Shown: positions 7,137 through 9,263 of the stretch, piece after piece
How the letters are laid out: each line of letters begins with the position of its first letter
Position numbering within the stretch: position 1 is the stretch's first letter
Assembly (NCBI RefSeq): GCF_023558375.1
Contig: NZ_CP083762.1
Coordinates: 64,273-88,272, forward strand
DNA: 24,000 nucleotides
Origin: Chroococcidiopsis sp. CCMEE 29
GTDB lineage: Bacteria > Cyanobacteriota > Cyanobacteriia > Cyanobacteriales > Chroococcidiopsidaceae
Reading direction: 5' to 3'
The notes under the pieces: generated by a model
Told to the model about the DNA's origin: nothing
The model's input: the letters and a program-made list of their open reading frames with translations, nothing else
Databases searched by the model: none
Position numbers and translations under genes: made by a program

Positions 7137-7339
7137 TCTCTACAGAAGGTTTGATTCATTAGTTAATCCTACGGCTGAGTTTACCCTCTACTGGCTCTTA
7201 CCTGAAAGAACTAATTCATAATCAATGTTTCCACATGCAGATAACTGTTCTTCTGTCAATGCGTAAGTCCTAGTTTATTGTTTTTGAGCAGCAGGCAAGC
7301 TCCAGATAGATTGGTACCACTGCCCATGCCCACAATTCA

Positions 7340-7648
7340 GTCATGTGGATTGTCAAGGGGATCTACTACAATCAGCTCAATCATTGTTACTCACCCCACG
7401 TCCTGTTTCAGGTAGATATAACTCGATTCAAGGACCTTCTCGACAATCAGTCATTCGTAGTCACTGTCGTAACAGTGCTACACTTTCCTCGTTCGTTGTG
7501 AAGGAGCTGCGCCTCAAACATCAAAACGTGGTCGCCAAGCGCTCACCGAAATGTGGACGGGGTCACAGCAGAAAAATCTGTCGATGCATCCTGAAAATGA
7601 GCTGTTAATTTTTCGATAATTTGACTAAAACAATCGCCTTTCTAGTCT
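7340..7648 (-). ncRNA. Candidate bridge/seek-type guide RNA region in the 3' non-coding tail of the IS110-family element
   Basis: About 300 nt lie downstream of the recombinase stop, with stop codons in all minus-strand frames. There is a local hairpin CACTGTcgtaACAGTG (7462-7477). Placement follows the IS1111-subgroup layout. No covariance search was possible. Confidence 0.3.
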
Positions 7649-8719
7649 TTAAGCTGTAGTAAGAGCCTTAGAATTTCGATATTCCATCTGGTAATTAACT
7701 TGGTTGTGGAAAGCTGCCCGAATCCGACCAATCAGTTTTCTAGCAACAGCAACAATCGCTCGCTTTTTGCCAGTGCGAGGATAGAGTCTCTCAAAGAACT
7801 CCCCTAAGGCTGTATCTTTCTCAATCGCCCGCCACGCGCTCTCTACCAGTATTCCTCTCAAGCGGCTATTGCCTTGTCTACTGATATGCCCTCGACGGAT
7901 GTTATCGCCACTAGAATATTCGGCGGGAGTCAGCCCTGTAAAGGAAAACAGTTGACGTTCATTGTTGAATTGCGACATATCACCTAATTCATTGGCAAGT
8001 ATGCGAGCAGAGAGTGGACCTACCCCAGGTGCAGAACGGTAAGTTGCTTCGTTGGGGTCTGTCTTCGCTTGCTCCTTAATCGCTTGAGTCAGCTTGCAAA
8101 TCTCCTCGTCTAACTTCCTCCAGATGTTCCAATGGGCTTCAATCACAATTCTCAACTCAGAGGATGAAGTACCATCAACAATCTCCCGAACCAGTTTGTG
8201 ACTCATCGGTCGGTTCTCGTCATACTGAATCAGTCCCAGTTGATGAAATTTCATTCTGATTTTATTTTTGATTGCGGTTCGTTCTTCAACCAGCTGTTGT
8301 CGGGTTCGCGTTAGCATTCGCCGTTGCTCTTGCTGCTCAGTAGGAATGCGATTGCCTCTTACTCGCCCCGCCTCAAGCAGAGCTGCCATTTTTTGAGCAT
8401 CCCGTTTGTCTGTCTTGACTCGGTCATTGGCAGCAACTTCAATTGCAGCGGCATGAACCACGATGTTGTCAATCCCATATTTCACTAACTCTCGATGCAG
8501 CGCAAATCCTGAAAACCCTGCTTCATAAACAGAATGGATGGTTGCTCCACTAAAGTATTTTTGCAGCTGTTGTGATAGTTCTTTCGGTGAAGCAACTGTT
8601 GTCCATTTCTTGATTACTTCTTTGTCTACTCTGGCGACTACTGAATAACTTTTCTTGTGAACATCAATTCCGATGAAGACTTCTTTTCCGGTGTATGAAG
8701 CTTGTTTCAGGCTTTTCAT
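7649..8719 (-). CDS. IS110 family transposase (DEDD/RuvC-like recombinase)
   Basis: 356 aa. N-terminal FIGIDVHKKS (DEDD domain start). C-terminal Transposase_20-like region (LTQIPGVGP-type: YRSAPGVGPLSARILANELGD ... FSFTGLTPAEYSSGD). Confidence 0.85.
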   Translation of the reverse strand: MKSLKQASYTGKEVFIGIDVHKKSYSVVARVDKEVIKKWTTVASPKELSQQLQKYFSGATIHSVYEAGFSGFALHRELVKYGIDNIVVHAAAIEVAANDRVKTDKRDAQKMAALLEAGRVRGNRIPTEQQEQRRMLTRTRQQLVEERTAIKNKIRMKFHQLGLIQYDENRPMSHKLVREIVDGTSSSELRIVIEAHWNIWRKLDEEICKLTQAIKEQAKTDPNEATYRSAPGVGPLSARILANELGDMSQFNNERQLFSFTGLTPAEYSSGDNIRRGHISRQGNSRLRGILVESAWRAIEKDTALGEFFERLYPRTGKKRAIVAVARKLIGRIRAAFHNQVNYQMEYRNSKALTTA

Positions 8720-8805
8720 AAAACACCACCCGTTTCTACAACAACTAGGTTATCTACAAGAAGTTTGACATTGCCTTTAACCTCATACAATCCAGCATAG
8801 GAACA

Positions 8806-9263
8806 TCTAGCTCAGATTCTGATCCATCAGACTCTTGAGGCGGCTTAGCAAGACGAATGTCAACTTCAAGAAGCTCTGGATTCAGTTGCTTTAACGCCTG
8901 AAGATTGACTTGCTGGAGTGTATGTTCTTTTTTTTAATTCTCGAATCACAGTACTGGGGCTAACGTGTAAAACCCGAGCTGTATCCCGAACTCCACTACC
9001 ATTTAGTGCCATATCCACAATCTGCTGTTTCACTTGACGAGATTGACCTGGATAAGCATAATCTAAGATAAATGTCCGACCATCGCAGGCAGTCTCCCGG
9101 CATTTATACCGCTGCTTTCCTTCTGGAGACTTGCCATGTTTTACAATATCTGTACCATGACAATTAGGACAGTGTAATACTTGTATAATCATGGCTCCTT
9201 CCATCAAATCTTCTGATGTTACTCTCAAAGTAAAGGTTACCACATCCACAGCTTGATAACACC
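8806..9263 (-). mobile_element. IS1-family element, 5' fragment only
   Basis: Carries the InsA-like ORF and an end resembling an IS1 IR start (GGTGTTATCAAGCTG, reverse complement ending at 9263). The InsB-type frame (..QESDGSESELD) breaks off near 8805, and no remainder was found beyond the IS110-family element. Confidence 0.6.
8866..9192 (-). CDS. IS1 InsA-like zinc-finger/HTH protein
   Basis: From ATG 9192: MIIQVLHCPNCHGTDIVKHGKSPEGKQRYKCRETACDGRTF ... GSGVRDTARVLHVSPSTVIRELKK. An A8 run (8928-8935) sits at the usual frameshift position. The longer ORF-track product fuses upstream VOC-derived sequence. Confidence 0.7.
   Translation of the reverse strand: MIIQVLHCPNCHGTDIVKHGKSPEGKQRYKCRETACDGRTFILDYAYPGQSRQVKQQIVDMALNGSGVRDTARVLHVSPSTVIRELKKRTYTPASQSSGVKATESRAS

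What the first reader, a model, noticed from the sequence alone, without database searches (positions are those of the whole stretch)
7278..8865. IS110-family element with a short 5' and ~300-370-nt 3' non-coding region: candidate RNA-guided (bridge/seek RNA) recombinase locus
The DEDD recombinase gene (7649-8719) has at most ~90-145 nt upstream but ~370 nt downstream before the next element, with no credible ORF there. In the IS110 family, a structured guide RNA encoded in a non-coding end specifies both target and donor, and in the IS1111 subgroup it lies 3' of the recombinase. There is a minus-strand outward-facing TTGACA (7352-7357) near the candidate right end. A TATGCT lies near the candidate left end (~8795). 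On circularisation these could form a junction promoter, as described for this family. Short inverted matches (7346-7353/8787-8794 and 7412-7422/8750-8758) may be subterminal repeats. Some IS1111 members target integron attC sites. Once the tIS is subtracted, this element lies only ~220 nt from attC-like site D.
Basis: partly seen in the sequence, partly recalled or inferred. Interest (0 to 1): 0.6.

Follow-up and report, generated by a model that had tools for sequence, protein, structure and literature searches.

The report
RNA-guided insertion sequence that targets IS1
This is an intact 1.47-kb jumping gene of the IS110/IS1111 family whose 3' untranslated end encodes a structured guide ("bridge" or "seek") RNA; the guide is programmed to insert the element into a conserved 12-base motif of IS1-family transposase genes. 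It is a clear new example of a mechanism first described in 2024, not a new mechanism.

Summary
Window 7338-8805 (minus strand) is a complete IS1111-group IS110-family element, 1466 bp plus a shared TG core. The host genome holds 7 intact and 1 interrupted near-identical copies, plus 84%-identical variants.

The 309-nt 3' non-coding region contains a conserved ~145-nt RNA (7440-7584, minus strand) with four helices supported by compensatory changes. Four unpaired segments co-vary across 11 lineages with the DNA they should read:
- left target flank + TG
- right target flank
- left end of the element
- right end of the element

The target is GATGA(A/G)ATGTGG, the D-E-M/L-W codons of IS1-family transposase genes, not attC. 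Joining the ends on a circle gives TTGACA-17 nt-TATGCT, conserved in 12 of 12 relatives.

Corrections:
- The element ends at 7338, not 7278.
- TTGACA is at 7351-7356.
- The second proposed inverted repeat looks like chance.
- The window copy has chimeric flanks: an IS1 fragment on the left and a non-IS1 sequence on the right.

One thing is unexplained. The 1-3 bases just beyond the right-hand core seem to travel with the element. This is seen in two lineages, and published circle-integration models do not predict it.

Verdict: new member of a known kind, with moderate interest.

The parts
7338..8805 (-). Complete IS1111-group IS110-family insertion sequence. It is 1466 bp plus one extra copy of the TG core; both cores are included in these coordinates.
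   Evidence: Seven intact copies and one interrupted copy, 99.8-100% identical, plus 84% variants in the same genome. Boundaries come from comparing occupied and empty sites.
7649..8719 (-). DEDD/Ser recombinase (transposase), 356 aa (P0001). Motifs by position: GIDVHK from residue 17, YEAG from 65, KTDKRDA from 102, GLTPAEYSSG from 262.
   Evidence: Pfam PF01548 and PF02371. NCBIfam NF033542, 242 bits. PDB sequence matches to the ISCro4 and IS621 recombinases. Motif positions.
8720..8803 (-). Left end (LE), an 84-nt 5' non-coding region. The first 5 nt, TTCCT (8803->8799), form the right donor half-site read by the RDG.
8804..8805 (-). Left copy of the TG core (crossover dinucleotide).
   Evidence: Overlap between the target prefix kept at the left junction and the suffix kept at the right junction. 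TG is invariant in all relatives.
7338..7339 (-). Right copy of the TG core.
8787..8794 (.). Subterminal inverted repeat, left arm (TGGATTGT on the element's sense strand).
   Evidence: I16. It co-varies with the right arm in relatives, e.g. GGATTAGT, ATGATGAGTTGTCA, GAAAAAG.
7346..7353 (.). Subterminal inverted repeat, right arm.
7351..7356 (-). Outward-facing -35 hexamer TTGACA in the right end.
   Evidence: Sequence. Conserved as TTGAC(A/T) in 12 of 12 relatives.
8794..8799 (-). -10 hexamer TATGCT in the left end. Joined to the right end through one TG core, the spacer is 17 nt.
   Evidence: spacer 17 nt in 10 relatives and 18 nt in 2.
7440..7584 (-). Bridge/seek RNA core, about 145 nt. A closing helix P1 encloses a target-binding hairpin and a donor-binding multiloop.
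   Evidence: Conserved block in 14 elements with 61-86% aa identity. RNAalifold plus pair counts: 13 of 33 pairs have compensatory changes and 94.6% of cells are paired, with 0 of 500 shuffles as high. Covariance model R1 finds only the 10 IS copies in the own genome. G-U pairs fix the strand.
7549..7557 (-). Right-target guide (RTG), UCCACAUUU. It is complementary to the top strand of (G)AAATGTGGA to the right of the core.
   Evidence: Cognate 6.9 of 9 matches against non-cognate 3.2 of 9 across 11 lineages; 0 of 20000 permutations as high. The empty IS1 site at C2:373342 matches perfectly.
7517..7527 (-). Left-target guide + core + handshake, GUUUUGA-UG-UU. It is identical to the top strand of the left junction (..GA TG TT).
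   Evidence: Cognate 4.6 of 7 against non-cognate 2.1 of 7; 0 of 20000 permutations. Exact 9-10-nt matches in L030, L031 and L040.
7485..7489 (-). Right-donor guide (RDG), AGGAA. It pairs with TTCCT at the start of the left end.
   Evidence: Co-varies: AGAAA with TTTCT (L030, L031) and AAGAA with TTCTT (L033). 4 of 20000 permutations as high.
7447..7455 (-). Left-donor guide + core + 1-nt handshake, AAUGAC-UG-A. It is identical to the last bases of the right end (CATGAC TG) plus the first base of the right flank.
   Evidence: Co-varies: AUGGUUG with ATGGTTG in L026-29. The handshake base equals the first right-flank base in all 13 elements of A1 that have a right junction (A, G and C all seen). 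Two exceptions appear among the metagenome loci.
7558..7569 (-). Helix P2, 5' strand. It pairs with 7506-7516 and closes the target-binding internal loop.
7528..7546 (-). Hairpin P3 (7539-7546 pairs with 7528-7535), the tip of the target-binding hairpin.
   Evidence: 4 of 6 pairs have compensatory changes.
7457..7481 (-). Hairpin P4 (7472-7481 pairs with 7457-7467), lying between the two donor guides.
   Evidence: 5 of 10 pairs have compensatory changes.
7330..7337 (-). Right target half-site as found here (AATTGTGG). It has one mismatch to the RTG.
8806..9266 (-). Left flank: the 5' part of an IS1-family element (zinc-ribbon and HTH region), ending in ..E-S-E-L-D at the junction. The rest of this IS1 copy is not present to the right of the IS.
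   Evidence: Pfam and NCBIfam IS1 hits. 100% identical over 463 nt to an uninterrupted IS1 copy at C2:372883-373345.
7273..7329 (.). Right flank, not IS1. Its first 27 nt are shared with the right flanks of two other copies (c2b and the 84% variant). It is followed by the tIS at 4703-7272.

Best explanation
Window 7338-8805 (minus strand) is an autonomous IS1111-group, IS110-family insertion sequence that moves by RNA-guided recombination.

Its DEDD/Ser recombinase is followed by a ~145-nt structured RNA (7440-7584). The RNA carries two programmable sites.

**Target-binding internal loop.** The 5' strand (CCACAUUU) pairs with the top strand of the right target half. The 3' strand (..GA-UG-UU) pairs with the bottom strand of the left target half plus the TG core.

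**Donor-binding multiloop.** AGGAA pairs with the start of the left end. AAUGAC-UG-A pairs with the bottom strand of the tip of the right end.

The RNA thereby brings the joined ends of the element together with the 12-mer GATGA(A/G)ATGTGG. The recombinase exchanges strands at TG. This 12-mer encodes D-E-M/L-W in IS1-family transposases, so the element lives mainly inside other insertion sequences.

In a circular copy the ends would abut to form TTGACA-17 nt-TATGCT. By analogy with ISEc11, this promoter would switch on the recombinase, and probably the co-transcribed RNA, only in the excised form.

**Shown here by computation:** copy number and boundaries, target motif, RNA structure covariation, guide-DNA covariation, conserved junction-promoter geometry.

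**Inferred by homology to ISEc11, ISPa11 and IS621:** that the RNA is made and bound by the protein, that a circle forms, and the order of strand exchange.
For: **Protein.** Pfam and NCBIfam hits. The GL-P----SG motif typical of IS1111 transposases is present, as defined in PMC11187229 section 6 (motif seen).

**Mobility and boundaries.** There are 8 near-identical copies and 84% variants. Empty paralogous sites contain exactly the 12-mer, with TG shared by both junctions. All 8 near-identical copies, and the variant junctions seen, sit at [G/T]ATGAnnTGTGG. I saw no occupied site among the IS1 sites that read GAC (no TG).

**RNA structure.** 33 pairs in 4 helices. 13 pairs have compensatory changes and 94.6% of cells are paired. 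The covariation score is 0.321 against 0.187 in shuffles (0 of 500 as high) and 0.10 or less when partners are slid.

**Guide-DNA covariation over 11 lineages.**
- RTG: 6.9 against 3.2 of 9
- LTG: 4.6 against 2.1 of 7
- both with 0 of 20000 permutations as high
- RDG: 4 of 20000
- LDG: 64 of 20000

Further lineages from metagenomes and other genomes fit the same rules.

**Order of guides.** The top-strand match lies 5' of the bottom-strand match, the order reported for IS1111 seekRNAs (PMC11187229).

**Donor guides in a multiloop.** This is reported for many IS1111 bridge RNAs (PMC11208160).

**Junction promoter.** Spacer of 17-18 nt in 12 of 12 relatives.

**Model specificity.** Model R1 hits only the IS copies in the 6.4-Mb genome.
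Against: - There is no expression data. No sigma-70-like promoter or intrinsic terminator was found for the RNA itself, so its ends and processing are unknown.
- The single-sequence fold is not better than shuffles (z = -0.36 for the whole non-coding region, -1.39 for the core).
- The left-target guide of this particular element matches only GA+TG+TT (3 of 7 upstream positions).
- The right half-site actually found at 6 of 8 near-identical copies (AATTGTGG) has one mismatch to the guide.
- The right-flank carry-over (see the full report) is not predicted by simple circle integration.
- Rfam has no matching family. That is uninformative rather than negative.
Confidence: 0.9

Rival explanations
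1. The 3' non-coding region is only a 3' UTR, a terminator or decayed sequence. Target choice is made by the protein, or by DNA-DNA pairing of the ends.
For: No own promoter or terminator was found. The single-sequence fold is unremarkable.
Against: A 145-nt block is conserved down to 61% protein identity while the surrounding non-coding sequence diverges. Compensatory changes occur in 13 pairs. G-U pairs fit only the sense strand. Four unpaired segments co-vary with flanks and ends.
Confidence: 0.03
2. It is an attC-targeting IS1111 element (like ISKpn4, ISPst6 or ISPa25), sitting in an integron cassette array.
For: An attC-like site (GGCTAAC...GTTAGGC, 4447-4547) lies about 219 nt away once the tIS is removed. 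Neighbouring genes are small and cassette-like.
Against: The guides specify GATGAAATGTGG. The left flank here is an IS1 fragment. The other copies sit at the same 12-mer, mostly in IS1-family genes. None of the flanks resembles attC. No integron integrase was found among the window's ORFs.
Confidence: 0.02
3. The uniform, guide-mismatched right half-site (AATTGTGG) comes from ordinary post-insertion gene conversion between IS copies, or from chance or selection of rare variant sites. It does not come from the transposition chemistry.
For: The genome is full of recombining repeats. The window copy itself has chimeric flanks. Natural AATT sites exist.
Against: Copy c1f differs from 7 empty paralogues at exactly 2 bases next to the IS, with 150 identical bases on each side. 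The count is 4 of 4 occupied against 0 of 10 empty IS1(S-Y-V) sites (Fisher p = 0.001). A second lineage shows the same pattern in 3 different flanks. A conversion tract would have to end within about 5 nt of the IS on both sides.
Confidence: 0.35

Closest known systems
ISEc11 / ISPa11 / ISKpn4 / ISPst6 (IS1111 family with seekRNA; Siddiquee et al. 2024, PMC11187229)
   Same: - DEDD transposase with a GL-P----S/TG motif.
- Short 5' and long 3' non-coding regions.
- Subterminal inverted repeats.
- Guide RNA downstream of tnp, with the top-strand match 5' of the bottom-strand match.
- No duplication beyond a few shared bases.
- Promoter formed at the circle junction.
- Insertion in one orientation at one specific short target.
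   Different: - Different host phylum (cyanobacteria) and a different target: the D-E-M/L-W codons of IS1-family transposase genes.
- The shared core is 2 nt (TG).
- Nothing here has been tested experimentally.
- Bases next to the right core appear to travel with the element, which I did not find described in the sections of that paper I read.
IS621 and its bridge RNA (IS110 group; Durrant et al. 2024 PMC11208160; Hiraizumi et al. 2024 and 2026)
   Same: - One RNA carries a target-binding and a donor-binding site.
- Each site reads both strands around a dinucleotide core.
- Handshake bases lie after the core.
- The recombinase is homologous (PDB 8wt6 match, E = 1.5e-10 over the C-terminal domain).
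   Different: - Here the RNA is 3' of the gene, not 5'.
- Guide order is reversed.
- The donor guides sit in a multiloop closed by an outer helix, with the target hairpin nested inside. That paper notes this arrangement for many IS1111 members.
- The core is TG, not CT.
- The subterminal repeats are longer.
IS4321 / IS5075 (IS1111 family; reference 10 of PMC11208160, by title only)
   Same: An IS1111-family element whose specific target lies inside another mobile element, so it parasitises mobile DNA.
   Different: [quoted passage not shown] This element targets a coding motif inside IS1-family transposase genes and inactivates them.

Membership tests
IS110 family (RNA-guided DEDD transposases) | Transposase with an N-terminal RuvC-like DEDD domain and a C-terminal PF02371 domain bearing the catalytic Ser. 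| tested here: met
   PF01548 at 57 bits and PF02371 at 76 bits. NF033542 at 242 bits against a cut-off of 140. Motifs GIDVHK, YEAG, KTDKRDA and YSSGD align with ISCro4; their positions come.
IS110 family (RNA-guided DEDD transposases) | Site-specific insertion in one orientation, without a conventional target duplication. | tested here: met
   All copies sit at [G/T]ATGAnnTGTGG in the same orientation. Only the TG core is shared by both junctions.
IS1111 group | The longer non-coding region lies downstream of tnp. | tested here: met
   309 nt at the 3' end against 84 nt at the 5' end. Criterion from PMC11187229 and PMC11208160.
IS1111 group | Subterminal inverted repeats of 7-17 bp. | tested here: met
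   8 bp perfect (7346-7353 / 8787-8794), set 6 and 9 nt in from the core. The repeats co-vary in relatives, up to 14 bp in L031.
IS1111 group | C-terminal GL-P----S(T)G motif. | tested here: met
   GLTPAEYSSG at residues 262-271. Motif as given in PMC11187229.
IS1111 group | The transposase branches with IS1111-type transposases in a phylogeny. | not tested
Only motif and architecture criteria were applied.
Bridge RNA / seekRNA | A conserved structured RNA in the long non-coding end. | tested here: met
Bridge RNA / seekRNA | Unpaired segments complementary to both strands of the target around the core, re-programmed in relatives with other targets. | tested here: met
   0 of 20000 permutations as high for both RTG and LTG. 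Extra lineages.
Bridge RNA / seekRNA | Segments matching the donor (the joined ends of the element). | tested here: met
   RDG pairs with the left end and LDG with the right end, with covariation.
Bridge RNA / seekRNA | The RNA is expressed, binds the recombinase and is required for transposition. | not testable with these tools
   Needs RNA-seq or RIP and a transposition assay.
Bridge RNA / seekRNA | Match to a curated RNA family model. | tested here: inconclusive
   No Rfam 15 hit at gathering score, or at E <= 10, in 7000-9100. No curated model matched this RNA.
IS1111-attC subgroup | Insertion at a fixed position in integron attC sites. | tested here: not met
   Targets are IS1-family genes and related 12-mers. 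The nearest attC-like site is about 219 nt away.

The most novel reading that the evidence does not exclude
In this IS1111 lineage the right-hand exchange does not happen at the TG next to the element's tip. The 1-3 bases between that TG and the next TG of the target (TG-AAT-TG here, TG-TGA-TG in a metagenomic sister lineage) move with the element and overwrite the target's own bases.

That would mean natural spread uses one of three things:
- a second crossover point inside the right target half;
- a one-ended or 'direct-transfer' route resolved within the short TGTGG homology;
- some other step absent from the published circle-integration model.

The carried bases keep one mismatch to the guide. 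This could protect the occupied site from re-targeting or from excision.
Probability: 0.3. Interest if true: 0.65.

Novelty: new member of a known kind. Interest (0 to 1): 0.4.

Why it matters
This is a clean natural example of a bridge/seek-RNA recombinase from cyanobacteria, with all four guide segments, the core and the handshake base readable directly from comparative data. Fourteen aligned relatives, plus further loci from metagenomes and other genomes, carry different natural programmes and could serve as a test set for IS1111-type guide rules.

The target choice is biologically neat. The element inserts into, and disrupts, the catalytic-motif codons of IS1-family transposases. That target is multi-copy, mobile and harmless to the host.

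The apparent carry-over of right-flank bases, if real, bears on the open question of how these elements actually move in cells: cut-out, copy-out or direct transfer.

The mechanism itself was published in 2024, and NCBI already names the protein family 'RNA-guided transposase'. The main finding is therefore confirmatory.

Tried and rejected
- **Rfam scans** (gathering score over the whole window; E <= 10 over 7000-9100) gave no relevant family.
- **Single-sequence folding** of the non-coding region and of the core was not distinguishable from shuffles. It was dropped as evidence.
- **Promoter and terminator scan** found nothing for the RNA itself.
- **Empty orthologous site for copy c1e** was sought in 30 related genomes and not found.
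- **Empty sites for the Pantanalinema-type relatives (L023-25)** were sought and not found.
- **In the complete genome G532**, empty sites exist and match the occupied half-sites. This is uninformative for the carry-over question.
- **5-bp excision footprints** (GATGTGG + IS1) were looked for and none found.
- **Head-to-tail junctions** that would show the circle junction were looked for and none found.
- **PLSDB plasmid search** with the element gave no match.
- **Sampling 400 genomes of the phylum** with the protein added only one locus.
By my reading of the alignments it is not kept in relatives.
- **Models that do not fit the observed junctions or the 17-nt promoter spacing** were considered and set aside: a 7-10-nt overlap, a circle carrying flank bases, and a crossover only at the second TG.
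Full report
**What is there**

The ORF at 7649-8719 (minus strand, 356 aa, P0001) is an IS110-family transposase.
- Pfam gives DEDD_Tnp_IS110 and Transposase_20.
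- NCBIfam NF033542, 'IS110 family RNA-guided transposase', scores 242 bits against a cut-off of 140.
- The only solved relatives by sequence are the ISCro4 and IS621 recombinases.
- The catalytic-type motifs GIDVHK, YEAG, KTDKRDA and YSSGD are present. So is GLTPAEYSSG, the GL-P----S(T)G signature that Siddiquee et al. give for IS1111-type enzymes.

**Boundaries**

The window is C2:64273-88272 of a two-contig, 6.39-Mb cyanobacterial genome. The common block 7330-8807 occurs in 7 intact copies and 1 interrupted copy at 99.8-100% identity. There is also one full and two partial copies at 84%.

Several flanks have uninterrupted paralogues. In each, the two flanks are separated by exactly 12 nt, GATGA(A/G)(A/T)TGTGG. 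Comparing these with the occupied sites gives this layout:
- left junction: ..GA-TG-TTCC..
- right junction: ..CATGAC-TG-AATTGTGG..

Only TG is common to both junctions. So the element proper is 8805->7340 (1466 bp) plus a second TG at 7338-7339. The 5' non-coding end is 84 nt and the 3' non-coding end is 309 nt.

**Target**

The 12-mer encodes D-E-M/L-W. The interrupted or paralogous genes all hit NCBIfam 'IS1 family transposase', across several IS1 subfamilies.

The genome holds 45 such 12-mers. In the IS1 contexts listed, I saw no occupied site among those that read GAC instead of GAT (no TG). The closest relatives (L021, L022, L069, L060/61/68) use the same IS1 motif. More distant ones use other targets.

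**The RNA**

Fourteen elements with 61-86% protein identity were collected from other cyanobacterial genomes and MAGs. They share a ~170-nt conserved block inside an otherwise divergent 3' region.

RNAalifold gives four helices:
- P1 (7578-7584 / 7440-7446) closes the whole structure.
- P2 and P3 form a hairpin with a large internal loop.
- P4 is a second hairpin.

Of 33 pairs, 13 show changes on both sides. 94.6% of cells are paired, against 21-54% when partners are slid. The covariation score is 0.321 against 0.187 in shuffles, with 0 of 500 shuffles as high. Frequent G-U pairs fit only the sense (minus) strand. No frame is open across relatives.

A covariance model built from the alignment (R1) finds exactly the ten IS copies in the own genome. 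It finds matches in 9 of 151 sampled cyanobacterial genomes.

**The guides**

The unpaired segments behave as guides. Across 11 independent lineages:

| Segment | Window position | What it matches | Cognate vs non-cognate | Permutations as high |
|---|---|---|---|---|
| RTG (5' strand of P2/P3 loop) | 7549-7557, UCCACAUUU | reverse complement of the right flank | 6.9 vs 3.2 of 9 | 0 / 20000 |
| LTG (3' strand of P2/P3 loop) | 7517-7527, GUUUUGA-UG-UU | left flank + TG + first bases of the left end | 4.6 vs 2.1 of 7 | 0 / 20000 |
| RDG | 7485-7489, AGGAA | pairs with TTCCT at the start of the left end | 4.7 vs 4.1 of 5 | 4 / 20000 |
| LDG | 7447-7455, AAUGAC-UG-A | copies the tip of the right end | 4.9 vs 3.9 of 6 | 64 / 20000 |

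Further details:
- The LTG gives exact 9-10-nt matches in L030, L031 and L040.
- The RDG changes to AGAAA or AAGAA where the left end reads TTTCT or TTCTT.
- The LDG changes to AUGGUUG where the right end reads ATGGTTG.
- The base after the LDG core equals the first base of the right flank in all 13 elements of the first set that have a right junction, with A, G and C all represented. This is a one-base handshake guide. Two exceptions appeared among later metagenomic loci.

This layout puts the top-strand match 5' of the bottom-strand match and places the donor guides in a multiloop. That is what Siddiquee et al. and Durrant et al. describe for IS1111 members.

**Ends and promoter**

The 8-bp inverted repeat 7346-7353 / 8787-8794 would not stand out in this window alone, which has 23 comparable pairs. 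It is nonetheless real, because the two arms co-vary in relatives.

Joining the right end to the left end through one TG gives TTGACA-ATCCACATGACTGTTCC-TATGCT, a 17-nt spacer. All 12 relatives with both ends give TTGAC(A/T)-17 or 18 nt-TATG(A/C/G)T. This is strong indirect evidence for a circle with junction ..GAC-TG-TTCC.. and for a junction promoter, as shown experimentally for ISEc11.

His second inverted pair is one of the 23 pairs, and by my reading of the alignments it is not kept in relatives.

**This copy's surroundings**

- To the left is the first 461 nt of an IS1 element (8806-9266). The 463-nt match that includes the core (8804-9266) is 100% identical to an intact copy elsewhere on C2.
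- To the right the IS1 does not continue. The 27 nt after the half-site are shared with the right flanks of two other copies (c2b and the 84% variant). This copy therefore has chimeric flanks, most simply from recombination between two IS copies.
- Next comes a 2570-bp repeated transposon at 4703-7272. It has 13 identical copies and carries a DDE transposase, a CDF transporter and an ArsR regulator.
- With that removed, an attC-like site (4447-4547) is about 219 nt away.

**An unexplained feature**

The guide predicts AAATGTGG to the right of the core. G-U pairing would also allow AGATGTGG. Unoccupied IS1 (S-Y-V type) sites read AAAT or AGAT in 10 of 10 cases. All four occupied ones read AATT: c1a, c1b, c1f and the 84% variant L010 (Fisher p = 0.001).

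- Copy c1f is decisive. Its flanks are identical over 150 nt on each side to seven empty paralogues. It differs from them only at the two bases next to the IS.
- Copies c1d and c1e, at unrelated sites, share ATATGTGG.
- In one metagenome, a sister lineage with guide AGAT shows TGATGTGG at three different sites. Two of these turn an IS1 D-E-M-W into D-V-M-W.

So the 1-3 bases between the core TG and the next TG behave as part of the element.

Neither circle integration at a 2-nt core, nor the copy-out or direct-transfer schemes of Sun et al. as read in section 8 of their preprint, predict this. Models with a long overlap, or with a flank-carrying circle, conflict with the observed left junction or with the 17-nt promoter spacing. 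No footprints or tandem junctions were found to help.

Possible explanations:
- a right-hand exchange at the second TG;
- resolution of a one-ended transfer within the TGTGG homology;
- very short conversion tracts.

I leave this open.

**Verdict**

The attC idea is not supported.

It is a new, well-resolved member of the IS1111 bridge/seek-RNA elements. Its notable points are the target (IS1 transposase genes) and a possible mechanistic oddity at the right junction.

Noticed in passing
window 4703-7272: A 2570-bp transposon with passenger genes (a 'tIS'): DDE_Tnp_1 transposase (4709-5668), cation-efflux (CDF) gene (5967-6584) and ArsR-family regulator (6714-7136). It is present in 13 identical copies in the genome. 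One copy is inserted inside another copy of the IS110-family element (c1f).
   Followed up: partly
window 4447-4547: An attC-like site, GGCTAAC ... GTTAGGC, about 100 nt long, just after the alpha/beta-hydrolase gene (3537-4433). Neighbouring genes are small and cassette-like (CMD, GFA, GNAT, glyoxalase, YCII). No integron integrase was found in the window. It may be a cassette array without an integrase.
   Followed up: partly
window 15049-16851 (-) and 20136-21938 (+); Rfam hit 14923-15007 (-): Two group II intron reverse-transcriptase/maturase/HNH ORFs with identical Pfam profiles lie in inverted orientation. One has a domain V-type Rfam match (RF00029) beside it. They flank an ISL3-family transposase ORF (17775-19430) that also has a resolvase-type HTH_7 hit in its middle.
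   Followed up: no
window 7330-7337 and the right junctions of other copies (C1:1394560, C1:5515857, C1:5285470, C1:5529015); metagenome loci L060, L061, L068: The bases immediately to the right of the right-hand TG core are the same in copies at unrelated sites (AAT here, TGA in a sister lineage). They differ from the bases at the corresponding empty sites, as if they travel with the element.
   Followed up: partly
window 7440-7455 compared with 7340-7357 and 8787-8805: The 3' part of the RNA (AUGACUG-AUUGUCGAG) reads like the circle junction with its central 12 nt removed: the right-end tip followed by the left-arm repeat sequence. The P1 helix resembles the subterminal repeat. This may be a trace of how the donor loop arose.
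   Followed up: no
own genome: Many IS1-family copies encode the Asp of D-E-M-W as GAC rather than GAT. That removes the TG core, and I saw no occupied site among those listed. A synonymous codon may act as immunity to this element.
   Followed up: partly
window 4640-4702 and 7273-7320: The sequences on either side of the tIS form an imperfect palindrome (..CAGCAGAAAACAATA.. / ..TATTGTTTTTGAGCAGCAG..) and both contain GCAAGCTCCA. The tIS appears to have landed in a hairpin-forming intergenic sequence.
   Followed up: no
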